Assembly: GCF_003019035.1 (NCBI RefSeq)
Contig: NZ_CP027447.1
Source: Escherichia coli
GTDB lineage: Bacteria; Pseudomonadota; Gammaproteobacteria; Enterobacterales; Enterobacteriaceae
DNA length: 64,000 bases
Strand: one strand, 5' to 3'
Shown: piece by piece, positions 17,820 to 64,000 of the stretch
Numbering within the stretch: the stretch's first letter is position 1
Layout: every line of letters begins with the position of its first letter
Notes under the pieces: model-generated
Seen by the model: the letters and a program-made list of their open reading frames with translations, nothing else
What the model was told of the DNA's origin: nothing
Database searches by the model: none
Translations under genes and position numbers: made by a program

Positions 17820-18395
17820 GTGGCAAAGAGCGTACCCGCAATTTTTCTTGACCGTGATGGCACCATTAATGTCGATCACGGCTATGTCCATGAGATCGAC
17901 AACTTTGAATTTATCGACGGTGTTATTGACGCCATGCGCGAGCTAAAAAAAATGGGCTTTGCGCTGGTGGTAGTAACCAACCAGTCTGGCATTGCTCGCG
18001 GTAAATTTACCGAAGCACAGTTTGAAACGCTGACCGAGTGGATGGACTGGTCGCTGGCGGACCGAGATGTCGATCTGGATGGTATCTATTATTGCCCGCA
18101 TCATCCGCAGGGTAGTGTTGAAGAGTTTCGCCAGGTCTGCGACTGCCGTAAACCACATCCGGGGATGCTTTTGTCAGCACGCGATTATTTGCATATTGAT
18201 ATGGCCGCTTCTTATATGGTGGGCGATAAATTAGAAGATATGCAGGCAGCGGCTGCGGCGAACGTGGGAACAAAAGTGCTGGTGCGTACGGGTAAACCTA
18301 TTACGCCTGAAGCAGAAAACGCGGCAGATTGGGTGTTAAATAGCCTGGCAGACCTGCCGCAAGCGATAAAAAAGCAGCAAAAACCGGCGCAATGA
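17820..18395 (+). CDS. gmhB: D-glycero-beta-D-manno-heptose-1,7-bisphosphate 7-phosphatase
   Basis: 191-aa ORF with GTG start, HAD motif FLDRDGTIN. Confidence 0.93.
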
Positions 18396-24956: not shown

Positions 24957-25867
24957 GCCTCTCTGACAGCTCCTCCGGGAGCTGTTTTTACATGCTCGCT
25001 AAGGAAATCGATAAAAGCCCGGATGCGCGTACTTACCGCACGGTCGCTGTAATAGACGGCACTGAATGGCATTTCCACTGGCAACACTTTATCTGCCATT
25101 AACTCCACCAATTCTCCGCGAGCGATTTCTTTGTCGATCATGTAGTCGGACAAACACGCAATCCCGTTGCCACTCAGGCAAAGCTGTTTCAGTGTTTCCC
25201 CACTATTGGATGACAAACCGTACTTCACCTCATGTAATTGTCCATCACTACAGGCTATCGGCCAGGTATTGAGGGAAGCGGGTTCAGTGAATCCCAGGCA
25301 AATATGTTGCTTTAAATCGTCGATCGTTTCTGGCTTCCCGTAGCGGGAAATATAATCGGGGGAGGCGATAATTTTTCGATAACTGTTAAATAACGGCCTG
25401 GCACGTAAGCTGGAATCCGTTAACGTACCGGCGCGTATCGCGACATCCACTTTTCTTTCGATCAAATTAATAATCGTTTCGGAGGAGACTAGTGATAAAG
25501 TGACTTCCGGATAGCGTTCACGGAAAGGCTTAATCAACGGCATCAGAAAGTGCAGCACCACTGGAGTTGCGGCATCGATGCGCAACAGTCCACGCGGTGT
25601 ATTACGCGTCTCCATAATTTCTGATTCTGCCGCTGCCATCTCCTGCAAAATTGACTGTACGCGACGAAAATAACGCTCGCCTTCTTCCGTCAGGCTAAGT
25701 TGCCGCGTGGTCCGATTAAGCAGGCTAACGCCAAGTTTCATCTCCAGCTTTTTCACCGCCCGGCTTACCGCTGAGTTTGCTTGCCCTAATTGTTCCGCTG
25801 CCCGGCTAAAGCTGCCGCTTTCGACGACCGAAACAAAAATGGCGAGTTCTTCCGACGTGGCTTTCAT
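24953..25867 (-). CDS. yafC: LysR-family transcriptional regulator
   Basis: 304-aa ORF with N-terminal HTH ([23 protein letters not shown]); convergent 4-nt overlap with dkgB. Confidence 0.9.
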
Positions 25868-26056
25868 TTTTGCTCCTGTTGCAAAATAGATGAGATATTT
25901 TGAATTTATTTGTCATTAAACCATCAGGATGCGTGATATGTCATCCGATTTAATGTTCTCAATAATGAGCAAATTTCTGACCGGTGTAAGCACTTGCTTA
26001 CATAACAATATACAATTGCTCGTTGAAAGAGTGAGCTAAAATCCCTATAACAGTAG

Positions 26057-26908
<852 letters not shown>

Positions 26909-27802: not shown

Positions 27803-29161
27803 TCAGGAATCTGGCATGTTGTTGTTTTTCACAAACAACGTCAGCTTATCGCCTGGTTGCAGATTCGCAGTGTCGCTGTTCCAGCGCATCACATCTTTGA
27901 TGTTCACGCCGTGGCGTTTAGCAATGCTTGAAAGCGAATCGCCTTTGCGCACACGATACGTAATGCTATCGCTGTTGTTTGCCAGTCGCTGTGCGCTACT
28001 ACCTGCGCCAATCGTCAAACTTTGGCCTGGCTTCAGCTTAGATCCGCGCAGTTTGTTCCACTGCTGCAAATCTTTGGTGCTTACGCCGAGACGTGAAGCG
28101 ATACTTGAAAGCGTGTCGCCAGAGCGTACGGTGTAAACACGGCTGTTAAGCGGCGTATTGTCGGCAACCAGCGTCGACTGTACAGCAGCAATTTCGCCTG
28201 AAGCCAGAGATTCACGCAGTTGATCTGCATGCTTCTTTGGCACCATCACGTACTGCGGACCACTCGCGCCCAGCGTGGAGCCTTTTACGCCTGCGTTGAA
28301 TGTCTTCAGCTTGCTGACGGAAATCCCCGCCATATCTGCAACCTTTGCCATTTCAACCGGGCTGCTCAGGTGCACACGCGCCAGAGCACGGCTTTCATCG
28401 GTCGTTGGCAGACGTACGCCATAACGCTTGCTGTTTTTGAGAATATCACTCAATGCCAGCATCTTAGGCACGTACTGCTTCGTTTCCTGCGGCAACGGTA
28501 ACGACCAGAAGTCCGTGGATTTCCCTCGCGCTTTGTTCGTTTTAATTGCCTTCATGACCCGACCTTCGCCGCTGTTATAAGCCGCTACGGTCAGAAGCCA
28601 GTCGCCGTCAAACATCTTGTTCAGACGCTGCATCATATTCAGCGCGGCAGTTGTTGAAGCAACAACATCGCGACGCGCGTCATAATTGCGGGTCTGTTTC
28701 AAACCATAATTGCGCCCCGTGCTCGGAATGATCTGCCAGATGCCTGCGGCATTGGCGCCAGACGTTGCGTGAGGATCAAAAGCGCTCTCCACTATGGGTA
28801 GTAGTACCAGTTCCATAGGCATGTTACGTTTTTTAACTTGCCCGGCTATCCAGTACATATACGGCTCTGCCCGTAAAGTTACATCGTGGAGATAGCTCTT
28901 ATTGCGTAAATATTTCTGTTTCTGTTCGCGAATCCGGTCGTTTTCCGGAATTCCCATCTTTAGCTCGTCGCCAATGAAAGCCCACAAGTCACCATCTGGC
29001 GCGATAGACGTCCCATCGTCCATCCATCGTGCCTGACTTGTAAACTTTGCTGCTTCCCCTTGACCAGCTGCAGAAAGGCTCTGTGCGTGCTGTTGAACGT
29101 TGCCGGTGCTCTGGCAACCCACGAGCAGGACAGAGGCGAGTAATATCGCTTTTGCCTTCAT
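27803..29161 (-). CDS. mltD: Membrane-bound lytic murein transglycosylase D
   Basis: 452-aa ORF, lipobox LLVGCQS, SLT domain and C-terminal LysM repeats. Confidence 0.93.
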   Translation of the reverse strand: MKAKAILLASVLLVGCQSTGNVQQHAQSLSAAGQGEAAKFTSQARWMDDGTSIAPDGDLWAFIGDELKMGIPENDRIREQKQKYLRNKSYLHDVTLRAEPYMYWIAGQVKKRNMPMELVLLPIVESAFDPHATSGANAAGIWQIIPSTGRNYGLKQTRNYDARRDVVASTTAALNMMQRLNKMFDGDWLLTVAAYNSGEGRVMKAIKTNKARGKSTDFWSLPLPQETKQYVPKMLALSDILKNSKRYGVRLPTTDESRALARVHLSSPVEMAKVADMAGISVSKLKTFNAGVKGSTLGASGPQYVMVPKKHADQLRESLASGEIAAVQSTLVADNTPLNSRVYTVRSGDTLSSIASRLGVSTKDLQQWNKLRGSKLKPGQSLTIGAGSSAQRLANNSDSITYRVRKGDSLSSIAKRHGVNIKDVMRWNSDTANLQPGDKLTLFVKNNNMPDS

Positions 29162-29232
29162 GTGTGTGTCAATAGTTGCTTAAAAGACGACCGATCATAA
29201 CGGCGAACGGAGCCGATGACAAGAAAGTTTTA

Positions 29233-29991
<759 letters not shown>

Positions 29992-32213: not shown

Positions 32214-32243
32214 CTATTCACTCATAAAAATGAGTTCAGAGAG

Positions 32244-32273
32244 CCGCAAGATTTTTAATTTTGCGGTTTTTTT
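32244..32273 (+). terminator. Terminator after aspV
   Basis: CCGCAAGATTTTTAATTTTGCGG hairpin followed by TTTTTTT. Confidence 0.5.
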
Positions 32274-32540
32274 GTATTTGAATTCCACCATTTCTCTGTT
32301 CAATGATTTTACTCTGGCGTAAGTGCGTGATTCTCGCTTGTTGTCTCATTCATTAAAATTCAATAATGATATCGAACCATTCAGCTTAAATATATTTCCA
32401 GAGAATAAATTTATATTGATTAAATGAATGTATATTTCAAATTGATTTTGTTTGTTATTATTTAAGTGAGGTATATAATTAGAGTCCGTTATCAATGCTA
32501 AATATTCTAATCATTATGACAGGCGAGGGAGTGTCCAATT

Positions 32541-33326
32541 ATGAATTCAAAAAAGCTTTGTTGCATATGTGTGTTATTCTCGCTGCTTGCAGGATGTGCC
32601 TCTGAATCTTCTATTGATGAAAAGAAGAAAAAAGCTCAAGTCACACAAAGTAATATTAATAAAAACACTCCCCAGCAACTGACAGACAAAGATTTATTCG
32701 GTAATGAAACCACTCTGGCCGTATCCGAGGAGGATATTCAAGCTGCGCTTGATGGAAATGAGTTCCGCGTTCCCCTTAATTCTCCTGTAATACTTGTTCA
32801 ATCCGGCAACCGCGCACCGGAAACCATTATGCAGGAGGAGATGCGAAAATATTATACTGTTTCCACATTCTCTGGTATCCCGGACAGGCAAAAGCCTCTG
32901 ACTTGTAACAAAAACAAAGATAAAAATGAGAACGAGGATGTTGCCAGTGCTGAAAATATGAACTGGATGCAGGCATTGCGTTTTGTGGCTGCGAAAGGGC
33001 ATCAGAAAGCGATTATTGTTTACCATGATACGTTGCAGACAGGAAAATATGACACTGCACTGAAATCAACAGTATGGTCCGACTATAAAAATGACAAACT
33101 CACTGACGCTATCTCCCTGCGCTACCTGGTACGTTTCACGCTGGTGGATGTGGCAACAGGTGAGTGGGCTACCTGGTCGCCGGTGAATTATGAATATAAA
33201 GTGCTTCCACCATTGCCCGACAAGAATGAAGCCAGTACGACTGATATGACAGAGCAGCAAATCATGCAACTTAAGCAAAAGACCTATAAAGCGATGGTAA
33301 AAGATTTGGTTAACCGCTATCAATAA
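32541..33326 (+). CDS. yafT: Lipoprotein YafT-like, unknown function
   Basis: 261-aa ORF, lipobox LLAGCAS, AT-rich gene preceded by a very AT-rich 330-bp region. Confidence 0.75.
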
Positions 33327-33462
33327 TAAATTATATCTGCCGCCAGGAATTTCTGGCGGAAATAATACAAAATTCTTTGCATAAGAAATTTTTCTTGACA
33401 AAGACAGTGCAAGAAAGGACATGGAATCCGGAGTTAAAAACTGTTTGTTTTAGAATATTTAA

Positions 33463-33942
33463 TTATTTAACTGCTGAATCTTCCTTGCGAGAAATATATC
33501 CATTATTACATTTCATGCCATTTTTAATATAGATTGCTCCTGGGAAAATTCCCGTATTATTACCGCAGGGGTGATAATTAGTATTGACATATCCTGTGAC
33601 AAAAGGAGCTATTAAAGGTGCTATTACGATAGCTATTAGTAAAAATATAAGAGTTAGCTGTATTGTTATGTCTGTGGCGAAATTGACTACCTTCGTTTTT
33701 TTGATTAAGAATGATTTTATTATCGTAAGTAAAATTACATGAATATTTAAAAAGGAAAACGACATGAAACCGAAGCACAGAATCAACATTCTCCAATCAT
33801 AAAATATTTCCGTGGAGCATTTTATTATTGAATATAGAGGTTTAACTCCGGTAAAAAACAAAGAAGCATTGAATGCAGGGAAAAATAATATGGCCATAAA
33901 AAACATCGAAAGAAACTCTTTTAATTTAACATGTAAACGCAT
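33463..33942 (-). CDS. ykfM: Small polytopic inner-membrane protein (YkfM-like); candidate immunity protein
   Basis: 159-aa ORF, very hydrophobic with several predicted TM segments, AT-rich; 9 nt downstream of the 309-aa ORF. Confidence 0.55.
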   Translation of the reverse strand: MRLHVKLKEFLSMFFMAILFFPAFNASLFFTGVKPLYSIIKCSTEIFYDWRMLILCFGFMSFSFLNIHVILLTIIKSFLIKKTKVVNFATDITIQLTLIFLLIAIVIAPLIAPFVTGYVNTNYHPCGNNTGIFPGAIYIKNGMKCNNGYISRKEDSAVK

Positions 33943-33951
33943 GGTTAATCC

Positions 33952-34881
33952 TCATATCACGGGTGGAGTGTTAAGAACATACATAAATGGAGTCATGTTT
34001 TCCCTTTTCCATTTATCAAGTTCCTGTTGCCGTTTTAGTCCATCTCTAATTGCATATTTTAATTTTTCTGATAAATGGCATTGAGCATCGATTTCATTTA
34101 AAACAACTGTACACACTATCCCTGTCAGTAAAATTGCTCCTCCGACAAGAATTACTGGAAAGCCAAAGCTAACACAGGCAAAAGAAGCCAGGCTTCCAAT
34201 AGCGGTTGCAACACCACCGGCTATAACTGCTTTGGCCACATCCATTGAAAAATCGCCAAGAAAATTAACCAGATCTCGCTCTGAACTCATAATAAATTCT
34301 ATGGTTCTCCAGGCTACTGAAAACCAGATACAGAACTTAACTCCTTTTATTGATTCAGATAAAGCTCCTCGCCAGCCAATAGCGAGTTCCAGAACTTGAG
34401 GCGCTCGTGAAGAGAAAATATATTTACCGAGCTTTTCTAAAAGCCAGGGGCTGGATGTTGTGATTTTTATATATTTCTCTCCAAGTATTTCAAAGTAACT
34501 TGCTTTTGTATACTTTAAGGCATTAAGGTTAAATATAATTTTCCCATTGTCATCAAACTCAGTCATTAATTTACCCGCGTTAACTAACCAGGCGAGTGTA
34601 TCTTTTATACCTGAAGGATGTGTAGTGATAAAATGAATGTAATCAAATGATGTTATTGGGCTGAGTATTTTTTTTGCAACATCAAGTGTCAAGAGAATAA
34701 CATGATGAGTGTTCTGATGCCTTAACTCATCAATGAGTGGGACGTCGTTAAGATAAGGGTGCTGAGGTACTAGCTGGTTTATCGGCTGAGCCCCCCGAAG
34801 AATGTCACCCACATAATCAGCCCACTGTGCATTCTGTGTGTTGTTGTTATTCCTTAAACCAGCCATTTTATCTCTCCGCAA
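33952..34881 (-). CDS. Membrane-anchored hypothetical protein (apparent full-length YafU-like); candidate Hcp-associated effector
   Basis: 309-aa ORF with soluble N-terminal region and C-terminal Gly/Ala-rich hydrophobic hairpin (VAKAVIAGGVATAIGSLASFACVSFGFPVILVGGAILLTGIVCTVVL); 28 nt downstream of the Hcp paralog. Confidence 0.55.
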   Translation of the reverse strand: MRRDKMAGLRNNNNTQNAQWADYVGDILRGAQPINQLVPQHPYLNDVPLIDELRHQNTHHVILLTLDVAKKILSPITSFDYIHFITTHPSGIKDTLAWLVNAGKLMTEFDDNGKIIFNLNALKYTKASYFEILGEKYIKITTSSPWLLEKLGKYIFSSRAPQVLELAIGWRGALSESIKGVKFCIWFSVAWRTIEFIMSSERDLVNFLGDFSMDVAKAVIAGGVATAIGSLASFACVSFGFPVILVGGAILLTGIVCTVVLNEIDAQCHLSEKLKYAIRDGLKRQQELDKWKRENMTPFMYVLNTPPVI

Positions 34882-34909: not shown

Positions 34910-35392
34910 TTACTGTACACGATCCTGCCATTTACTCATTGCATTCGTACCGGCTAACGTATGCTCCCAGGAAATATCTTCATAAATAAAGGCAATTCTC
35001 TCCTGTGGTTCCAGTTCTTTTTCCAGGACAGCATGCGGTGTGACAAAATCAATACTTGATATTCGGGCTTTTGACAGATTTATTTTATAATAAGGCTGGT
35101 AAATACCCGCTTTACTGGTTCGGTAGAGTATAAATTCACATAATGCCATTTTTTCATTGTCACTAAGTGCTTTTGCCAGCAATGGTGAGGATTTATCAAC
35201 CGGTTTGGTGATAATTAATTCATGATGATTGACATTTTGACTTCTTGAGATGGAATGCATTAACGCATAAACCATGATCTGATCTTTATGTTCTGGCTGC
35301 GCTTTGTTTCCGACAGAATCAAGCGTTGAGCAACCTGCTGAAATTAGCCCTTGTGTCTCTCCACTCAAAGATAAATAACTTATATTTGCCAT
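34910..35392 (-). CDS. Hcp-family protein (divergent TssD paralog)
   Basis: 160-aa ORF; YLSLSGETQGLISAGCSTLDSVGN aligns with canonical Hcp YISITGQTQGNITAGAFTADSVGN at 55478; similar C-terminal ...SWEH... motif. Confidence 0.75.
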   Translation of the reverse strand: MANISYLSLSGETQGLISAGCSTLDSVGNKAQPEHKDQIMVYALMHSISRSQNVNHHELIITKPVDKSSPLLAKALSDNEKMALCEFILYRTSKAGIYQPYYKINLSKARISSIDFVTPHAVLEKELEPQERIAFIYEDISWEHTLAGTNAMSKWQDRVQ

Positions 35393-53971: not shown

Positions 53972-54021
53972 ACTGAAAATCCTTCTGTTTTAGCTGTGTT
54001 TCTGAAACCGGCTTTTCGCCA

Positions 54022-54246
54022 TCAGTGAAGTACGCGCTGCCAGTGCGACGCGCTCTGCTGAAACTCACAAAAATGGATAATCTCATCCAATAGATCACTG
54101 ATACGGCGATCCAGTGTTGTAATCAGCGCAGCCACACCATCCTGGTTGATTTCAACGGACGGGCTGAAACATACCTGGTAAACCACCTGCAGAATGTCTG
54201 CAACAGAGAGGTGGTATGTCCCGGAGATATTTTTGTGTGCCGTCAT
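54022..54246 (-). other. Short ORF (74 aa) resembling the N-terminal segment of TssC; possible gene fragment
   Basis: ...VAALITTLDRRISDLLDEIIHFCEFQQSASHWQRVL aligns by eye (about 40% identity) with TssC residues ...VDSMIADIDERISRQMDVIIHAPAFQQVESFWRSL. Confidence 0.3.
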
Positions 54247-54280
54247 GCCTGGATAACCCTGTTTAATGAAATAGTGGTGG

Positions 54281-54781
54281 TTATTTATTGCTCACCCGGC
54301 CGATTTCTTTGAGCAACTGCTCGCGGGACTCCTCATTTTCCAACAATGCCTGGAGCTGGGTACGGAATGCCGGAAGGTTACCCATCGGCCCCTTCAGTGC
54401 AGTCAGTGCTTCACGCAGTTCCAGCAATTTATTCACTTCCGGAACCTGCCGGGCCACGCTATCTGGTGAAAAATCATCCAGTGATTTGATATTCAGCGCC
54501 ACATTCAGTTCATCGTCTGTTGTGCTTCCCTTCAGCGTGGCGGGGACAGTAAAATTGAGGCCAATGGCTGCTTCAGCCATCACTGCACCGAAATTGTGCT
54601 TGTTAACGGAAACTGCCTGACGTTCATCCAGTGGGGATGTTTCCTGCGTATTTCCGGTATCGCCGACAACGAGCATGTTAAGCGGAAGTTCCACTTCAGC
54701 CGTCTGGCCATCTGTTTTTGGGACATACGATATATTAATACGCTCGCGAGGCGCGACGCTGCCTTCAAATTTTTTGCTCAT
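54281..54781 (-). CDS. tssB: T6SS contractile sheath small subunit TssB (VipA)
   Basis: 166-aa ORF MSKKFEGSVAPRERINISYVPKTDGQTAEVELPLNMLVVGD... Confidence 0.9.
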   Translation of the reverse strand: MSKKFEGSVAPRERINISYVPKTDGQTAEVELPLNMLVVGDTGNTQETSPLDERQAVSVNKHNFGAVMAEAAIGLNFTVPATLKGSTTDDELNVALNIKSLDDFSPDSVARQVPEVNKLLELREALTALKGPMGNLPAFRTQLQALLENEESREQLLKEIGRVSNK

Positions 54782-55165
54782 AAAAGTGATCCGTCATGTT
54801 ATCTCGTACAGGCCATGAACACGGCATATTTGTACCGAAAAAAAATATCGGCAATGCCGCCCTAATGGCGGTGAAAATAAAATCACCACTCCTTCATCAC
54901 CCCGCATTCTACGCTTCAAAATAAATAAGAAAAGGACTTTTTATCGATCGTAAAGAGGGGTATTCTGCAAGCGTTAAATAGATTGTGTGAACCTGTGCAA
55001 TTCGCGCCAGGTGTATTATGGCAATAATTTAAATATAGAGCTTTTATGTAACTTATTGAATTATATAATAATTTCATTAAACATAAGCTAATCTGATGAT
55101 TGCTTGTTTATATATTTGTTTTGTGATTGATTAAGTGGGTATTTTTAAGGAATATCTCAAAAATT

Positions 55166-55186
55166 ATCAAAATGATAATTCAGAAA
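55166..55186. promoter_or_regulatory. Weak Fur-box-like sequence in the tssB/hcp divergent control region
   Basis: AATGATAAT core matches the central 9 nt of the Fur consensus GATAATGATAATCATTATC; about 11/19 overall. Confidence 0.25.
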
Positions 55187-55477
55187 GGATAAATACAATA
55201 TTTATTCATGATTCAGCTTTGGCCATTTTATGGAGGCAATACGGACTTTGAACAGTTGGGTATGGTTATCCAGATATATATTATTAACTTATTGCTGAAT
55301 AAGAGATTTAATGATTTTAAAAATAGTTTTTACGACAACCGTAAATTCTAGCTCGGTTTGTATGTAAAAAATACTGAAAAATGATGCGGTTCCGTGAAGT
55401 GAGCTGCATCTGCCTGTCTGGGATTAACGGCAGGTCATTGTAAGTAGTAATTAACCACGTTAACAAGGAGTTTACAA

Positions 55478-55996
55478 ATGCCAACACCGTGTTATATCTC
55501 CATCACTGGTCAGACCCAGGGAAATATTACTGCAGGTGCATTTACCGCTGATTCTGTCGGCAACATCTATGTGCAGGGGCACGAAGACGAGATGCTGGTG
55601 CAGGAATTCCTGCATAACGTTACTGTCCCGACCGATCCTCAGTCCGGCCAGCCTGCGGGTCAGCGTGCTCACAAGCCGTTCATTTTTACCGTGGCGCTGA
55701 ACAAAGCTGTTCCGCTGATGTACAACGCACTGGCCTCCGGCGAAATGCTGCCAACCACTGAACTTCACTGGTGGCGTACCTCTGTGGAAGGCAAACAGGA
55801 GCATTATTTCACCACCCGCCTGACCGATTCGACGATTGTCGATATGAAACTGCATATGCCGCATTGCCAGGATCCGGCGAAACGCGAGTTCACCCAGTTG
55901 CTCGAAGTTTCACTGGCCTACCGCAAAATAGAGTGGGAACACGTCAAATCTGGCACCTCCGGTGCCGACGACTGGCGCGCACCGCTGGAAGCATAA
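55478..55996 (+). CDS. hcp: T6SS inner tube protein Hcp (TssD)
   Basis: 172-aa ORF MPTPCYISITGQTQGNITAGAFTADSVGNIYVQGHEDE... Confidence 0.93.
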   Translation: MPTPCYISITGQTQGNITAGAFTADSVGNIYVQGHEDEMLVQEFLHNVTVPTDPQSGQPAGQRAHKPFIFTVALNKAVPLMYNALASGEMLPTTELHWWRTSVEGKQEHYFTTRLTDSTIVDMKLHMPHCQDPAKREFTQLLEVSLAYRKIEWEHVKSGTSGADDWRAPLEA

Positions 55997-56007
55997 GTTA
56001 AGCCAAC

Positions 56008-56040
56008 AGCATCCGGCTATCAGGCCGGATGCTGTTTTTG
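56008..56040 (+). terminator. Candidate intrinsic terminator/attenuator between hcp and vgrG
   Basis: GCATCCGGC-TATCAG-GCCGGATGC hairpin followed by TGTTTTTG. Confidence 0.5.
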
Positions 56041-56205
56041 TATTACGCCGTAAAAAGAAAGGTTGTCAGTAAGGGGTTACGTTCACGGGAGATGGCGGAT
56101 GCCGGAAACTTCGGCGGTAGCGTGCCTGAACGCAAGCGTAACACTGTACTGTTACAGCCGCTTTAACAGCGAACTGTCTGTTTTTCCTTAAACCCGGAGG
56201 TTGCT

Positions 56206-58314
56206 ATGTCAACCGGATTACGTTTCACGCTGGAAGTGGACGGCCTGCCACCGGACGCGTTTGCGGTGGTCTCCTTTCATCTGAACCAGTCACTCTCTTC
56301 GCTCTTTTCCCTCGATCTCTCTCTGGTCAGCCAGCAGTTTCTCTCCCTTGAATTTGCGCAGGTGCTGGACAAAATGGCCTACCTGACGGTATGGCAGGGC
56401 GATGACGTACAGCGCCGGGTGAAAGGTGTGGTGACCTGGTTTGAACTGGGGGAGAACGACAAAAACCAGATGCTGTACAGCATGAAGGTGTGCCCACCGC
56501 TGTGGCGCACAGGGCTGCGCCAGAACTTCCGTATCTTCCAGAATGAGGACATCGAAAGCATACTCGCGACGATCCTGAAAGAAAACGGGGTGACCGAGTG
56601 GAGTCCGCTGTTCAGCGAGCCGCATCCTTCCCGTGAGTTTTGTGTCCAGTACGGCGAAACCGATTACGATTTCCTGTGCCGGATGGCGGCGGAGGAAGGC
56701 ATCTTCTTTTATGAGGAGCACGCGCAAAAAAGTACCGACCAGAGCCTGGTCCTGTGCGACACCGTGCGTTATCTGCCGGAGTCCTTTGAGATCCCCTGGA
56801 ATCCGAACACCCGTACCGAGGTGAGCACCCTATGCATCAGCCAGTTCCTCTACAGCGCACAAATCCGCCCATCTTCCGTGGTGACCAAAGACTACACCTT
56901 TAAACGACCCGGCTGGGCAGGGCGTTTTGATCAGGAAGGCCAGCACCAGGATTACCAGCGCACACAGTATGAAGTGTATGACTACCCCGGACGTTTCAAG
57001 GGTGCCCACGGGCAGAACTTTGCCTGCTGGCAGATGGATGGCTGGCGAAACAACGCAGAAGTGGCGCGCGGAACAAGCCGTTCGCCGGAGATATGGCCGG
57101 GACGGCGAATTGCGCTGACGGGGCATCCGCAGGCGAACCTGAACCGGGAATGGCAGGTGGTGGCAAGTGAACTGCACGGCGAGCAGCCGCAGGCGGTGCC
57201 GGGACGCAGTGGTTCAGGTACCACGCTGAATAACCACTTTGCGGTAATACCGGCAGACAGAACATGGCGGCCACAGCCGTTGCTGAAACCGCTGGTGGAC
57301 GGCCCGCAGAGCGCCGTCGTGACGGGACCGGCAGGAGAAGAAATCTTCTGTGATGAACATGGCCGCGTGCGGGTGAAATTTAACTGGGACCGTTATAACC
57401 CGTCAAACCAGGACAGTTCATGCTGGATCCGTGTGGCACAGGCGTGGGCAGGCACCGGGTTTGGTAACCTGGCGATACCGCGTGTGGGTCAGGAGGTCAT
57501 TGTGGACTTCCTCAACGGCGATCCGGACCAGCCGATTATTATGGGGCGCACCTACCACCAGGAAAACCGCACCCCCGGCAGCCTGCCGGGAACAAAGACG
57601 CAAATGACCATTCGTTCAAAAACCTATAAGGGCAGCGGGTTTAATGAACTGAAGTTTGACGATGCGACAGGGAAAGAACAGGTCTACATCCACGCGCAGA
57701 AGAACATGAACACCGAGGTGCTGAATAACCGCACCACAGATGTGATAAACAACCATGCTGAGACCATCGGCAACAATCAGGTGATTGCGGTTACCAACAA
57801 TCAGATACAGACGGTGGGCGTTAACCAGATAGAGACGGTGGGCAGTAACCAGATCATTAAAGTGGGCTCTGTTCAGGTGGAAACGATTGGACTTGTTCGT
57901 GCGCTGACTGTGGGCGTGGCGTATCAGACGACGGTAGGTGGCATTATGAACACCTCGGTGGCCCTGATGCAGTCCTCGCAGATCGGTTTGCATAAATCGT
58001 TGATGGTCGGGCTGGGTTATGACGTCAAAGTCGGAAATAACGTTACCTTCACCGTTGGTAAAACGAAAAAGGATGATACCGGGCAGACCGCGATTTACTC
58101 CGCCGGTGAGCATCTGGAACTCTGCTGTGGTAAGGCAAGGCTGGTGCTGACTAAGGACGGACAAATTTTTCTCAACGGCACAAAAATTCATTTGCAGGGT
58201 AAGGAGCAGGTTAATGGTGACTCACTGTTGATTAACTGGAACTGTGCAGCCTCGAAATCCCCACCGAAGACCCCTGATGAAAAGCAGGATACGCCGGATA
58301 TGAGAGAGTACTGA
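56206..58314 (+). CDS. vgrG: T6SS spike protein VgrG (TssI)
   Basis: 702-aa ORF, N-terminus MSTGLRFTLEVDGLPPDAFAVVSFHLNQSLSSLFSLDLSLVSQQ, beta-helix repeat region (TVGVNQIETVGSNQIIKVGSVQVETIG). Confidence 0.93.
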   Translation: MSTGLRFTLEVDGLPPDAFAVVSFHLNQSLSSLFSLDLSLVSQQFLSLEFAQVLDKMAYLTVWQGDDVQRRVKGVVTWFELGENDKNQMLYSMKVCPPLWRTGLRQNFRIFQNEDIESILATILKENGVTEWSPLFSEPHPSREFCVQYGETDYDFLCRMAAEEGIFFYEEHAQKSTDQSLVLCDTVRYLPESFEIPWNPNTRTEVSTLCISQFLYSAQIRPSSVVTKDYTFKRPGWAGRFDQEGQHQDYQRTQYEVYDYPGRFKGAHGQNFACWQMDGWRNNAEVARGTSRSPEIWPGRRIALTGHPQANLNREWQVVASELHGEQPQAVPGRSGSGTTLNNHFAVIPADRTWRPQPLLKPLVDGPQSAVVTGPAGEEIFCDEHGRVRVKFNWDRYNPSNQDSSCWIRVAQAWAGTGFGNLAIPRVGQEVIVDFLNGDPDQPIIMGRTYHQENRTPGSLPGTKTQMTIRSKTYKGSGFNELKFDDATGKEQVYIHAQKNMNTEVLNNRTTDVINNHAETIGNNQVIAVTNNQIQTVGVNQIETVGSNQIIKVGSVQVETIGLVRALTVGVAYQTTVGGIMNTSVALMQSSQIGLHKSLMVGLGYDVKVGNNVTFTVGKTKKDDTGQTAIYSAGEHLELCCGKARLVLTKDGQIFLNGTKIHLQGKEQVNGDSLLINWNCAASKSPPKTPDEKQDTPDMREY

Positions 58315-61989: not shown

Positions 61990-62598
61990 CGTCTGCCGGG
62001 GCAGCAGCATGATGAGGAGTCGGGGCTGTATTATAACCGGAACCGGTACTACAATCCGTTGCTGGGGAGGTATATTACCCAGGATCCAATTGGGCTGGAG
62101 GGGGGATGGAACCTGTATAATTACCCACTGAATCCGATAATAAGGATGGATCCTTTGGGTTTGTATAATTTATATCAATTATTATATGATGTTTGGCATG
62201 ATGATTCATATGGAACATCATCAATTGATATTACTGGCAGTGGAGATCTAATATCATTAGGTGGTCATGCAGGACTTGGCGTTGCGTTTGCTAAAAAGAA
62301 AGGTGAAATGTTATCTGATATTTGTATTTATGCTACAGCATGCGGACATGCAGGAATTGGTGGTGGGATAAATGCGGCTATCACATATTCTGAGACCAAG
62401 TCTTTACCTACATCGGGAGTCAGCAATTCAGTAGGTGTAACGGTTGGCGGCGGAGTTGGGGGGCATTTTGCGTATACTTATGTAGTGGATGTTGATAATC
62501 CAGAATCATCGACAGAATCTGTTGGTATCGGTGCAGGTGTTGACGCTTCAGTTATGACTCTGGCTTGTAGAACGTGGCAAGAATGCTGGGTCAATTAA
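61990..62598 (+). other. Rhs C-terminal region in frame with the core: conserved junction (DPxGL motif) plus glycine-rich candidate toxin domain
   Basis: Same frame as 58381 ORF; [58 protein letters not shown] then an AT-rich, Gly-rich tail; track ORF 62059 begins at TTG, no ATG. Confidence 0.6.
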
Positions 62599-62609
62599 CA
62601 GGAGGAAAT

Positions 62610-63005
62610 ATGAAAGAATATATATTTTTAGTTTTATTTTTATTGTGTGGTTGTTCTCCAGTGGACATAGAGCCAGCTAGACAAGAAGTTAATATCTTTC
62701 GTGGTTTATATCAGACAGGAAAATACAGTGATATATATAAAATCACTTCAAGTGATTTTCAGACTGCCACATCTGAAAAAAAATTTATCGACATAATGAG
62801 CGAAGCAAAAGGAAAAGATCTTGGGACTTATAAAAAATCAACCCTTAAAACTGAAAAAATCACTCGCGGATTATTTTCAAACGATGAAATTACATTGATA
62901 TATTTCTCAGAATATTCAAAAAGAATTGTCCAAGAGGTTTTTGTGTTTAATGTTGAAGACAAAAAAGTAAAATTAAAAGGTTATAGGTATGATTCGATTA
63001 ATTAA
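62610..63005 (+). CDS. Putative lipoprotein, candidate Rhs immunity protein
   Basis: ORF 62574-63005; ATG at 62610 behind AGGAGG; MKEYIFLVLFLLCGCSP lipoprotein signal; AT-rich; immediately after the Rhs C-terminal domain. Confidence 0.6.
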   Translation: MKEYIFLVLFLLCGCSPVDIEPARQEVNIFRGLYQTGKYSDIYKITSSDFQTATSEKKFIDIMSEAKGKDLGTYKKSTLKTEKITRGLFSNDEITLIYFSEYSKRIVQEVFVFNVEDKKVKLKGYRYDSIN

Positions 63006-63297
63006 ATTTTTTGATGATGACTTCAATTAGTAGAACATGTATTTTTCGATAAAAGCACCGATGACTTTTTCATGAAGTTCTACAGAGCGCGAGAAACAGA
63101 TGGTTCTGCGAGTCAGACGTTTGATTCAGGTTCTCAGGGGCAGATTCAGGGACAGGGAAAGATCATCAGAAGTTCACTTTTTGCACTAAATAATTCGCAT
63201 TTTATGTTTAAAAATTGAGATATTTCTCATTACCTGAAACTGTTTTTTTATTGCTTATACATGATCAAATACTCCTTACATAATTAAGGAGAACAAA

Positions 63298-64000
63298 ATG
63301 GAACTTAAAAAATTGATGGAACATATTTCTGTTATCCCCGATTACAGACAAGCCTGGAAAGTGGAACATAAATTATCGGATATTCTACTGTTGACTATTT
63401 GTGCCGTTATTTCGGGTGCAGAAGGCTGGGAAGATATAGAGGATTTTGGGGAAACACATCTCGATTTTTTGAAGCAATATGGTGATTTTGATAATGGTAT
63501 TCCTGTTCACGATACCATTGCCAGAGTTGTATCCTGTATCAGTCCTGCAAAATTTCACGAGTGCTTTATTAACTGGATGCGTGACTGCCATTCTTCAGAT
63601 GATAAAGACGTCATCGCAATTGATGGAAAAACACTCCGGCATTCTTATGACAAGAGTCGCCGCAGGGGAGCGATTCATGTCATTAGTGCGTTCTCAACAA
63701 TGCACAGTCTGGTCATCGGACAGATCAGGACGGATGAGAAATCCAATGAGATTACAGCTATCCCTGAACTTCTTAACATGGTGGATATTAAAGGAAAAAT
63801 CATCACAACTGATGCGATGGGTTGCCAGAAAGATATAGCAGAGAAGATACAAAAACAGGGCGGTGATTATTTATTCGCTGTAAAAGGAAATCAGGGTCGG
63901 CTAAATAAAGCCTTTGAGGAAAAATTCCCACTGAAAGAATTAAATAATCCAGAACATGACAGTTACGCAATTAGTGAAAAGAGTCACGGCAGAGAAGAAA
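63298..64000 (+). mobile_element. ISAs1-family transposase (H-repeat-associated protein), 5' part; continues beyond window
   Basis: ATG at 63298 behind AAGGAG; [58 protein letters not shown]... matches E. coli H-rpt proteins; typical position downstream of Rhs elements. Confidence 0.85.

What the first reader, a model, noticed from the sequence alone, without database searches (positions are those of the whole stretch)
54782..55477. 696-bp AT-rich divergent control region between tssB and hcp with a weak Fur-box-like site
The region has no ORF, is extremely AT-rich (a likely H-NS target) and separates the divergently transcribed structural operon and hcp-vgrG-rhs operon. It contains an AATGATAAT core at 55171-55179 that matches the centre of the Fur consensus, and a GATC/CGATCG site near 54945. 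E. coli T6SS loci are known from the literature to be silenced by H-NS and, for at least one locus, controlled by Fur and Dam methylation; whether that applies here is untested.
Basis: partly seen in the sequence, partly recalled or inferred. Interest (0 to 1): 0.45.

Follow-up and report, generated by a model that had tools for sequence, protein, structure and literature searches.

The report
Known H-NS-silenced T6SS-2 divergent promoter
This 696-bp AT-rich gap is the already-studied two-way promoter region of the E. coli type VI secretion system 2, which the nucleoid protein H-NS keeps silent; the "Fur-box-like" site is no better than chance, and published in vivo data show no Fur binding there.

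Summary
The gap between tssB (54281-54781, -) and hcp (55478-55996, +) is 54782-55477. It has 33% GC against 52% for the window, no conserved ORF, AATGATAAT at 55171-55179 and CGATCG at 54945-54950.

This is the aspV-island T6SS-2 bidirectional promoter region, called "t6sP" in EHEC. It occurs at >=95% identity in 2228 of 5426 complete E. coli genomes. Published work on near-identical copies in EHEC and Shigella sonnei shows H-NS silencing, and the activating signal remains unknown.

The Fur/Dam idea is not supported:
The best site in the gap matches 13/19, a score that 39% of shuffles reach.
- GATC occurs twice against 1.8 expected, never near a Fur-like site, and is not conserved.
- Published Fur ChIP-exo in O157:H7 Sakai, where these sites are identical, has no peak within about 25 kb of the region.
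- T6SS-2 genes are absent from the nine-strain Fur pan-regulon.

What selection does preserve across eight lineages:
- AT-richness and length.
- A -10-like TAGAAT (54906-54911, -) for tssB.
- A -10-like TACAAT/TATAAT element (55189-55216, +) about 280 nt upstream of hcp.
- Structured leaders on both sides.

Verdict: ordinary and already known; low interest.

The parts
54281..54781 (-). tssB (TssB/VipA sheath small subunit), first gene of the structural operon
   Evidence: 166-aa ORF. 98% identical to proteins named T6SS contractile sheath small subunit, PF05591. Equals ECs_0233 in Sakai.
55478..55996 (+). hcp (hcp3/hcp2B type), first gene of the hcp-vgrG-rhs operon
   Evidence: 172-aa ORF. 100% identical to Sakai ECs_0234 by tblastn. 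PF05638 in orthologous loci.
54782..55477 (.). 696-bp intergenic region, the T6SS-2 bidirectional promoter region ('t6sP')
   Evidence: >=95% identical in 2228 of 5426 complete E. coli genomes, one copy each. The S. sonnei reporter primers match both of its ends.
54961..55400 (.). AT-rich core, the proposed H-NS silencing platform
   Evidence: GC 28.4%, with the lowest-GC 200-bp window of the 64 kb. The 15 distinct orthologous IGRs from the related lineages are 625-705 bp and 28.5-34% GC, although distant pairs share only about 50% identity.
54906..54911 (-). -10-like hexamer TAGAAT, candidate tssB core promoter (inferred)
   Evidence: GTA(A/G)AAT is present in all eight related lineages examined, 84-124 nt upstream of the tssB ATG. 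The TSS was not mapped here.
54929..54945 (-).
   Evidence: Phylogenetic footprint 54929-54943 shared with 5-6 of 7 other lineages, against a null rate of 0.06%; alignment.
54782..54899 (-). tssB 5' leader, predicted to be strongly structured; contains the conserved CATGGCCTGTACG
   Evidence: RNA fold of 54900->54765 gives -39.9 kcal/mol, z = -2.9, 0 of 200 shuffles as stable. Footprint 54805-54822. A long hairpin is also predicted in the L039 type and partly in the APEC type.
54946..54949 (.).
   Evidence: Two GATC observed against 1.76 expected. GATC 54946 is TCGAAC in E. albertii and absent in the other lineages.
55146..55160 (+). Conserved motif TAAGGAATATCTCAA, function unknown
   Evidence: 16/18 shared with APEC O1. 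Also present in Salmonella IGRs. Footprint 55148-55161. Two matches at <=2 mismatches in the 64-kb window against 0.13 expected.
55163..55179 (.).
   Evidence: three perfect 7-bp-arm palindromes against 0.74 expected, reached by 6% of shuffles. Kept as TTATCAAAGTGATAA in the L039 type, broken by a 4-nt insertion in E. albertii, absent elsewhere. Overlaps the -35 position (ATGATA) of the scanner's promoter call.
55189..55216 (+). Most deeply conserved central element, ATAAATACAATATTTATTCATGATTCAG, with -10-like TACAAT (55194-55199); candidate distal hcp promoter (inferred)
   Evidence: 17/18 identical to Salmonella and lgn18 IGRs; 0 of 200 and 1 of 200 shuffles reach this. TATAAT in Salmonella, lgn18 and L039 types. 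Lies 240-284 nt upstream of the hcp ATG in every lineage that has it. Unique in the window. Promoter scan ATGATA-16-TACAAT. This element is also the best Fur-consensus match (13/19).
55383..55410 (+). Hairpin HP1 in the hcp leader (GAUGCGGUUC...GAGCUGCAUC)
   Evidence: Present in the MFE and centroid folds. 79% of cells paired over 12 sequences. Pair-preserving G-U/G-C changes in the E. coli, E. albertii, L039 and APEC clade; register not kept in the Salmonella clade.
55412..55435 (+). Hairpin HP2 in the hcp leader (CCUGUC...GGCAGG) with GGGA in the loop
   Evidence: The only helix RNAalifold predicts on 7 lineages. 90.6% of cells paired against 34-45% when partners are slid; 3 pairs changed on both sides. 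The covariation score is not beyond shuffles (69 of 500).
55465..55470 (+). Shine-Dalgarno AAGGAG of hcp
   Evidence: Invariant in all lineages.

Best explanation
The region is the bidirectional promoter and leader region of the E. coli T6SS-2 cluster on the aspV island.

Shown in the literature on near-identical copies: H-NS keeps both promoters silent under laboratory conditions, and removing H-NS raises the mRNAs but is not enough for full protein expression.

Inferred here:
- The AT-rich centre (about 28% GC) is the silencing platform. It is conserved in composition and length, not in sequence.
- Embedded in it are two back-to-back core promoters about 280 bp apart. One drives tssB from a conserved -10-like TAGAAT (54906-54911, minus strand) with a leader of roughly 120 nt. 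The other drives hcp from a deeply conserved TACAAT/TATAAT element (55194-55199) with a leader of roughly 270 nt.
- Both leaders are structured: the tssB leader has z = -2.9, and the hcp leader carries hairpins HP1 and HP2 just upstream of the ribosome-binding site. This may add post-transcriptional control.

Fur and Dam methylation play no detectable part.
For: Identity of the locus:
- 97% identical to the Sakai tssB-hcp gap, with the same gene order.
- The S. sonnei reporter primers match both ends.

H-NS silencing:
- hns deletion raises T6SS transcripts about 60-fold, and complementation reverses it (PMC5363993).
- PMC13141884 confirms this and reports that both promoter reporters are nearly silent in wild type and rise in the hns mutant.
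- The same holds in the APEC T6SS2 type.

Composition:
- Lowest GC of the whole 64 kb.
- The 15 distinct orthologous gaps from the related lineages keep 28.5-34% GC and 625-705 bp while sequence identity between distant pairs falls to about 50%.

Promoter elements:
- GTA(A/G)AAT is present in all eight related lineages, 84-124 nt from the tssB ATG.
- The central 18-mer is 17/18 identical between E. coli and Salmonella (0 of 200 shuffles) and sits at a constant 240-284 nt from hcp.
- Footprints were scored against a null rate of 0.06%.

Leaders.

Post-transcriptional layer: in the hns mutant, hcp3/tssB mRNA rises but protein is barely detected. Replacing the whole gap with Ptac/PBAD gives Hcp3 and TssB protein.

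Against Fur.
Against: - No transcription start site was available to me. Kim et al. 2022 (PMID 35984617), which mapped several, is not held.
- The simple promoter scan finds no more sites than shuffles do (5 against 3.4 +/- 2.0).
- The -35 regions are weak and not conserved.
- In APEC, a 215-bp hcp2B-proximal fragment that excludes the central element still has promoter activity, so a proximal hcp promoter may exist as well or instead.
- The H-NS high-affinity motif is not enriched beyond composition.
- H-NS binding itself was not testable here.
- Covariation support for the hairpins is modest, and the long tssB-leader hairpin is not predicted in E. albertii.
Confidence: 0.8

Rival explanations
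1. Fur represses one or both promoters in iron-replete cells by binding the AATGATAAT-containing site, the reader's hypothesis modelled on EAEC sci1.
For: - The sites validated in sci1 match the consensus at only 13/19 and 11/19, so a weak match does not exclude binding.
- The two best Fur-like matches here overlap the -35-like ATGATA (55172-55177) and the -10-like TACAAT (55194-55199) of the candidate hcp promoter. That is the classical position for a repressor.
- TGATAAT is conserved in the L039 type.
Against: - Matches are at chance level: 39% of shuffles reach 13/19.
- The best 7-1-7 match is 10/14, and my hand alignment of the 13/19 site to the 7-1-7 core finds neither its G nor its C.
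- No ortholog carries a strong, positionally conserved Fur box.
- Fur ChIP-exo in Sakai, where these sites are identical, finds no peak between 193,075 and 288,115 under iron-replete or iron-starved conditions.
- ECs0231-0236 are not in the ChIP table or the pan-regulon table.
- Iron limitation and fur deletion have no effect on APEC T6SS2.
- The low-iron sci1-inducing medium did not activate the EHEC reporters.
- The published virtual footprint of t6sP lists ArgP, CysB, CytR, Fis, LeuO and NarL/P, not Fur.
Confidence: 0.05
2. A sci1-type epigenetic switch in which Dam methylation of a GATC and Fur binding exclude each other.
For: Two GATC sites exist. One (54946) lies in a conserved box upstream of the candidate tssB promoter.
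Against: - GATC is not over-represented (2 against 1.76 expected). sci1 has three within 53 nt, one of them inside the Fur box at the -10.
- The GATCs here are at least 190 bp from every Fur-like match.
- GATC 54946 is lost in E. albertii and absent in all other lineages, although the surrounding box is kept.
Confidence: 0.02
3. The conserved central motifs (55146-55160, palindrome 55163-55179, 55189-55216) are operator sites for a still-unidentified activator or anti-silencer that displaces H-NS, rather than plain promoter hexamers, or in addition to them. This is compatible with the main explanation.
For: - Conservation far above the surrounding AT-rich DNA.
- Palindromic architecture.
- The conserved part extends 12 nt downstream of the -10-like hexamer.
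- hns deletion alone is not enough; DMEM or MM9 medium adds expression only in the hns mutant.
- CpxR-P activates and binds the APEC-type hcp2B promoter.
Against: - No known factor's motif fits convincingly. CpxR-like sites number 3 against 0.83 +/- 0.92 expected, and none is in a homologous position.
- Comparisons by eye with RcsB, IHF, ArgR and PhoP consensus sequences all failed on spacing or key bases.
- AT-rich DNA easily yields palindromes.
- No regulator gene lies in the island.
Confidence: 0.3
4. The gap hides an unannotated small gene (small ORF or small RNA).
For: - Short ORFs exist, for example 55208-55351 (47 aa), which starts at the conserved ATG of TTCATGA.
- The candidate promoter at 55194 would transcribe it.
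Against: - By my hand translation of the aligned orthologs, the ORF shrinks to 9, 7 and 4 codons in the E. albertii, L039 and APEC types, and lgn18 has no ATG.
- No Rfam family matches with E < 1.
- No terminator lies inside the gap.
- RefSeq annotates nothing there in 28 of the 30 genomes listed.
Confidence: 0.04

Closest known systems
EHEC O157:H7 T6SS-2 bidirectional promoter 't6sP' (z0264/tssB - hcp3), together with the same region in Shigella sonnei
   Same: The same locus: 97% identical DNA, identical flanking genes, the same aspV island. Shown to be H-NS-repressed, nearly silent in vitro, reported to have several start sites, and replaced by Ptac/PBAD in promoter-swap studies.
   Different: Only strain-level polymorphism. 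The window is 100% identical to E. coli SCU-301. The conserved elements and leader hairpins mapped here do not appear in the papers I could read.
EAEC sci1 (T6SS-1) promoter: Fur plus Dam epigenetic switch (Brunet et al. 2011, PMC3145626)
   Same: An E. coli T6SS promoter upstream of tssB with weak-consensus Fur-like sequences (13/19 and 11/19 there; 13/19 and 11/19 here).
   Different: A different T6SS family (T6SS-1 against T6SS-2) and a different gene order; here hcp is divergent. sci1 has three GATCs in 53 nt, one of them inside the Fur box at the -10. Here there are two GATCs in 696 bp, neither near a Fur-like site. Fur binding is proven for sci1 and absent in vivo for the Sakai copy of this region.
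APEC/ExPEC (phylogroup B2) T6SS2 vipA2-hcp2B intergenic region
   Same: The orthologous position at aspV, 705 bp, 31.5% GC, H-NS-repressed and independent of Fur and iron.
   Different: Only about 53% identical overall. Just the roughly 100 nt next to each gene, plus the TAAGGAATATCT motif, can be aligned. CpxR-P binds a site there that has no positional counterpart here.
H-NS-silenced T6SS clusters in other bacteria (Salmonella SPI-6, Vibrio parahaemolyticus, Edwardsiella), as cited in PMC5363993
   Same: AT-rich, horizontally acquired promoter DNA silenced by H-NS, with derepression on hns deletion.
   Different: Unrelated sequences. Where the counter-silencing signals are known, they differ.

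Membership tests
E. coli T6SS-2 (aspV island) bidirectional promoter region | Lies between divergently transcribed tssB (structural operon) and hcp-vgrG-rhs | tested here: met
   ORFs and orientation. The Sakai and APEC O1 annotations show the same layout.
E. coli T6SS-2 (aspV island) bidirectional promoter region | Sequence homology to the experimentally studied EHEC and S. sonnei region | tested here: met
   97.1% identity over all 696 bp to Sakai. The S. sonnei reporter primers match both ends.
H-NS xenogeneic-silencing target | AT content well above that of the surrounding genome | tested here: met
   33% GC (core 28%, minimum 21%) against 52% for the window. AT-richness is conserved across the eight related lineages.
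H-NS xenogeneic-silencing target | Derepression when hns is deleted | not testable with these tools
   Published for the 97%-identical EHEC copy: about 60-fold, and complementable (PMC5363993; PMC13141884). Also published for APEC T6SS2.
H-NS xenogeneic-silencing target | Physical H-NS binding to the region | not testable with these tools
   PMC13141884 states that H-NS is bound between hcp3 and tssB, citing Wan 2017 and Kim 2022. I could not read the primary binding data.
H-NS xenogeneic-silencing target | High-affinity nucleation motif TCGATAAATT (helpful, not required) | tested here: inconclusive
   No site with <=1 mismatch. Four sites with <=2 mismatches against 2.25 +/- 1.39 in shuffles.
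Fur-repressed promoter | A Fur box (19-bp consensus or 7-1-7 inverted repeat) better than chance | tested here: not met
Best 7-1-7 match 10/14.
Fur-repressed promoter | Fur occupancy in vivo | tested here: not met
   Looked up in a published dataset. Fur ChIP-exo in O157:H7 Sakai has no peak between 193,075 and 288,115; the region lies at 263,438-264,133, and the Fur-like sites are identical to those in the window.
Fur-repressed promoter | Expression dependent on iron or fur | tested here: not met
   Looked up. ECs0231-0236 are absent from the nine-strain Fur pan-regulon table. No effect in APEC T6SS2. The low-iron SIM medium did not activate the EHEC reporters. Caveat: H-NS silencing could mask a Fur effect in wild type.
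Fur-repressed promoter | Conservation of the site among orthologous promoters | tested here: not met
   AATGATAAT is broken in E. albertii and absent in the APEC, Salmonella, Yokenella and C. youngae types.
sci1-type Fur/Dam epigenetic switch | A GATC inside the Fur box that overlaps the -10, within a local GATC cluster | tested here: not met
   GATCs occur only at 54788 and 54946, at least 190 bp from any Fur-like match. Two observed against 1.76 expected. sci1 features are.
sigma-54 / enhancer-binding-protein-dependent T6SS promoter | GG-N10-GC (-24/-12) element | tested here: not met
   The single GG-N10-GC candidate scores 5 of 11 specified positions. No bEBP gene is annotated in the island.
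CsrA/RsmA-bound leader (considered only) | Two or more GGA motifs, one in a hairpin loop and one at the Shine-Dalgarno sequence | tested here: inconclusive
   GGGA in the HP2 loop (55420-55423) and AAGGAG at 55465-55470. GGA is kept at the HP2 loop in 6 of 7 lineages. GGA within a Shine-Dalgarno sequence is trivial, and no binding data exist.

The most novel reading that the evidence does not exclude
The short elements that survive in otherwise scrambled AT-rich DNA across E. coli, E. albertii, Salmonella and Citrobacter-like lineages are the missing activation and gating hardware of T6SS-2. These elements are TAAGGAATATCTYAA, the palindrome ATTATCA-N3-TGATAAT, and TAYAATATTTATTCATGA. They would form an operator for an unidentified anti-silencer. 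In addition, the conserved hcp-leader hairpins, with GGA in the loop and at the SD, would impose a translational block, for example through CsrA. That would explain why hns mutants make mRNA but little protein.
Probability: 0.25. Interest if true: 0.45.

Novelty: already known. Interest (0 to 1): 0.17.

Why it matters
As stated, the finding adds nothing. The region, its divergent layout and its H-NS silencing are published, and the Fur/Dam suggestion is contradicted by published genome-wide data.

One thing of residual value comes from the comparison made here. T6SS-2 is the most prevalent E. coli T6SS, and it cannot be switched on in the laboratory in EHEC or S. sonnei; the natural signal is an acknowledged open question. 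The comparison narrows 696 bp of AT-rich DNA down to a handful of conserved elements of 15-28 bp and two structured leaders. These are concrete targets for mutagenesis and pull-down experiments.

Tried and rejected
- **Rfam, permissive threshold, 54300-56300:** only chance hits with E >= 1.1.
- **Simple sigma-70 and terminator scan:** not above shuffles.
- **Repeat search:** only short AT-rich pairs.
- **sigma-54:** none.
- **H-NS motif TCGATAAATT:** not enriched.
- **CpxR consensus:** three weak sites, none positionally homologous to the APEC site.
- **RcsB, IHF, ArgR, PhoP and LexA consensus, compared by eye:** each failed on spacing or key bases, so none is claimed.
- **Small ORFs:** not conserved.
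- **Kim et al. 2022 (TSS mapping):** not held.
- **Journet & Cascales review:** not held.
- **Sy et al. 2020 dRNA-seq supplements:** not held.
- **Genome-contig scan with TssB:** only 4 loci.
- **Metagenome scan:** mostly E. coli-type copies plus one new lineage, L039.
- **Variation within E. coli:** too low to be informative.
- **Real Fur weight matrix:** not built, because I could not assemble trusted sites. The consensus counts were calibrated against the validated sci1 boxes instead.
- **Transfer of the APEC 'no Fur effect' result:** weakened after I found that the APEC-type gap is only about 53% identical. The Sakai ChIP-exo data replaced it as the main evidence.
Full report
**Observation.** The window has tssB on the minus strand (54281-54781) and hcp on the plus strand (55478-55996). 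The gap between them is exactly 54782-55477, 696 bp. GC is 33.3% overall and 28.4% for 54961-55400, against 52.3% for the whole window. The lowest-GC 200-bp stretch of the entire 64 kb (21%) lies at 55021-55220. AATGATAAT is at 55171-55179 and CGATCG at 54945-54950. Only unconserved ORFs of 30-56 aa occur, and RefSeq annotates nothing under the match in 28 of the 30 genomes listed. The descriptive part of the finding is correct.

**Is the Fur-like site more than chance?** No.
- The best match in the gap is 13/19 (55188-55206). In 1000 dinucleotide-preserving shuffles, 39% reach 13 or more.
- GATC occurs twice against 1.76 +/- 1.3 expected.
- An exact 9-mer from the consensus is rare (0.046 per shuffle), but it was picked after the fact from many possible sub-words.
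- The Fur boxes validated in EAEC sci1 also match at only 13/19 and 11/19 (PMC3145626). Consensus counting therefore cannot decide the question either way, and other evidence is needed.

**What the locus is.**
- The gap is present once per genome, at 95% identity or more, in 2228 of 5426 complete E. coli genomes. It is 100% identical in strain SCU-301 and 97.1% in O157:H7 Sakai.
- In Sakai it separates ECs_0233 (impB/tssB) from ECs_0234 (hcp), within the aspV-linked island ECs_0215-0238. The layout is tssB-tssC-tssE-F-G-tagH-tssJ-K-L-clpV-vasI-tssA-tssM-...-hcp on one side and hcp-vgrG-rhs on the other.
- The literature calls this cluster T6SS-2. The Fur/Dam-controlled sci1 cluster is T6SS-1.

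**What is already published on this region.**
- In EHEC EDL933, deleting hns raises T6SS transcripts about 60-fold, and complementation reverses this (PMC5363993).
- A 2026 study names the gap the 'unknown bidirectional promoter' t6sP. It states that H-NS is bound there and that Kim et al. 2022 found several start sites. It shows that both directions are nearly silent in wild type and rise in the hns mutant. It found no medium that consistently activates either promoter, and the low-iron sci1-inducing medium was among those tried. A virtual footprint predicted ArgP, CysB, CytR, Fis, LeuO and NarL/P sites, but not Fur (PMC13141884).
- A Shigella sonnei study cloned exactly this gap; its primers match both ends of 54782-55477. 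It saw no induction by osmolarity, nutrients, temperature or polymyxin B (PMC10924462).

**Direct evidence on Fur.**
- The nine-strain Fur pan-regulon study includes O157:H7 Sakai, with Fur ChIP-exo under iron-replete and iron-starved conditions and RNA-seq of wild type against a fur deletion (PMC10164565).
- Its Sakai peak table jumps from P10 at 193,075 to P11 at 288,115. The gap is at 263,438-264,133, so no peak lies within about 25 kb of it.
- None of ECs0231-0236 appears in the ChIP table or in the pan-regulon table, and both files are held uncut.
- The Sakai sequence is identical to the window across all the Fur-like matches at 55138-55206.
- In APEC, iron limitation and fur deletion left clpV2 and hcp2B unchanged, while hns deletion raised them (PMC5874247). 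This transfers only indirectly, because the APEC O1-type gap is just 53% identical to the window's.
- One caveat remains: H-NS occupancy might mask Fur in wild-type cells.

**Comparative anatomy.** I collected orthologous gaps from these sources:
- a Citrobacter MAG (98% identical);
- E. albertii (about 70%);
- a metagenomic lineage I call L039 (62%);
- APEC O1 (53%);
- Yokenella, Citrobacter youngae, Salmonella enterica and an unnamed lineage, lgn18 (all about 50%).

The 15 distinct gaps from these lineages are 625-705 bp long and 28.5-34% GC. Length and AT-richness are therefore conserved, while most of the sequence is not. That fits a composition-dependent silencing platform.

Against this background, a footprint scan was run with 14-mers, at most 2 mismatches, shared with at least 3 of 7 lineages, and a null rate of 0.06%. 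It picks out only a few blocks:
- 54805-54822;
- 54915-54943;
- 55148-55161;
- 55189-55216;
- the hcp ribosome-binding region, 55457-55477.

**tssB side.**
- On the tssB-sense strand, GTA(A/G)AAT occurs in all eight related lineages, 84-124 nt upstream of the ATG. In the window it is TAGAAT at 54911->54906. It is preceded by the conserved box GA(T/A)AAAAGTnCTTyTC (54929-54945). I read this as the tssB core promoter with a leader of roughly 120 nt (inference).
Its GATC is TCGAAC in E. albertii and is missing elsewhere.
- The leader folds much better than shuffles: -39.9 kcal/mol, z = -2.9, 0 of 200.

**hcp side.**
- The strongest central footprint is ATAAATACAATATTTATTCATGATTCAG (55189-55216).
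- Its 18-mer is 17/18 identical in Salmonella and lgn18 (0 of 200 and 1 of 200 shuffles). It lies 240-284 nt from the hcp ATG in each lineage that has it, and it is unique in the window.
- It contains TACAAT, which is a perfect TATAAT in Salmonella, lgn18 and L039. The promoter scanner pairs it with ATGATA at a 16-nt spacing.
- I read this as a distal hcp promoter (inference). In APEC, a proximal 215-bp fragment that lacks the element is still active, so a second promoter is possible.

**How the Fur-like matches relate to the conserved elements.**
- The best 'Fur' match (13/19) is this -10-like element. In my hand alignment of it to the 7-1-7 core it has neither the G nor the C of that core, and the best 7-1-7 match anywhere in the gap is only 10/14.
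Its half-sites are in the opposite order and at a different spacing from a Fur 7-1-7 site.
- That palindrome is kept in L039, broken by a 4-nt insertion in E. albertii, and absent in the remaining lineages.

**hcp leader.**
- Two hairpins precede the ribosome-binding site: HP1 (55383-55410) and HP2 (55412-55435).
- HP2 is the only helix RNAalifold predicts across seven lineages.
- On 12 sequences, 90.6% of HP2 cells pair, against 34-45% when partners are slid, and three pairs change on both sides. The covariation score is not beyond column shuffles (69 of 500).
- By my reading of the alignment, all wobble pairs are G-U on the hcp-sense strand. That points to RNA rather than to a DNA or protein site, but the support is modest.
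- A GGA in the HP2 loop together with AAGGAG at the Shine-Dalgarno sequence resembles a CsrA-type arrangement. This is speculation only.
- It would fit the published observation that hns mutants accumulate hcp3/tssB mRNA with little protein, whereas replacing the whole gap gives protein.

**Mechanism.**
- Shown in the literature: the promoter region is bidirectional and silenced by H-NS.
- Inferred here: the positions of the two core promoters, the AT-rich centre as the silencing platform, and the structured leaders.
- Not supported: Fur and Dam.
- Open: the counter-silencing signal and factor.

**Novelty and score.** The feature is already known, and the Fur-like site is a chance resemblance contradicted by in vivo data. 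Interest is low (0.17). The conserved-element map is a modest, testable by-product.

Noticed in passing
window 54022-54246 (-), within the roughly 300-bp gap between tssB and tssC (53972-54280): A 74-aa ORF, equal to Sakai ECs_0232 'hypothetical'. Its residues 28-67 are 43% identical to TssC residues 57-96, which suggests a relic of a partial tssC 5' duplication. APEC O1 has only 22 bp between tssB and tssC, whereas E. albertii and Salmonella loci keep the gap. This may bear on the published claim that tssB and tssC are separate transcription units.
   Followed up: partly
window 56005-56036 (+), 9 nt after the hcp stop codon: A strong intrinsic terminator with a 14-bp stem (8 G-C pairs) followed by TTTTTGT, in the hcp-vgrG spacer. 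It matches the terminator/stabiliser 'h3R region I' described for EHEC in PMC13141884.
   Followed up: partly
window 54765-54900 (-): The tssB 5' leader is predicted to fold unusually stably (-39.9 kcal/mol, z = -2.9, 0 of 200 shuffles), with a long hairpin closed by GCCAU/AUGGC. The hairpin recurs in the L039 type and partly in the APEC type, but not in E. albertii.
   Followed up: partly
window 55146-55160 and 63215-63229: The conserved motif TAAGGAATATCTCAA has one further 2-mismatch copy (TGAGAAATATCTCAA, minus strand) in the AT-rich stretch downstream of rhs. Two matches were found against 0.13 expected.
   Followed up: no
window 25861-26060, 29161-29580, 32221-32660, 33261-34120, 34421-34720, 35041-35280, 62121-63440: Further islands below 35% GC in the window. 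Exact copies of the H-NS high-affinity motif TCGATAAATT occur at 17908 and 62782. None was examined.
   Followed up: no
loci L003-L019, hcp genes: Hcp is 97-100% identical in protein between E. coli, Yokenella, C. youngae and Salmonella, although the adjacent TssB is only 74-77% identical and the gap only about 50%. hcp is under far stronger constraint than its neighbours, or has been exchanged more recently.
   Followed up: no
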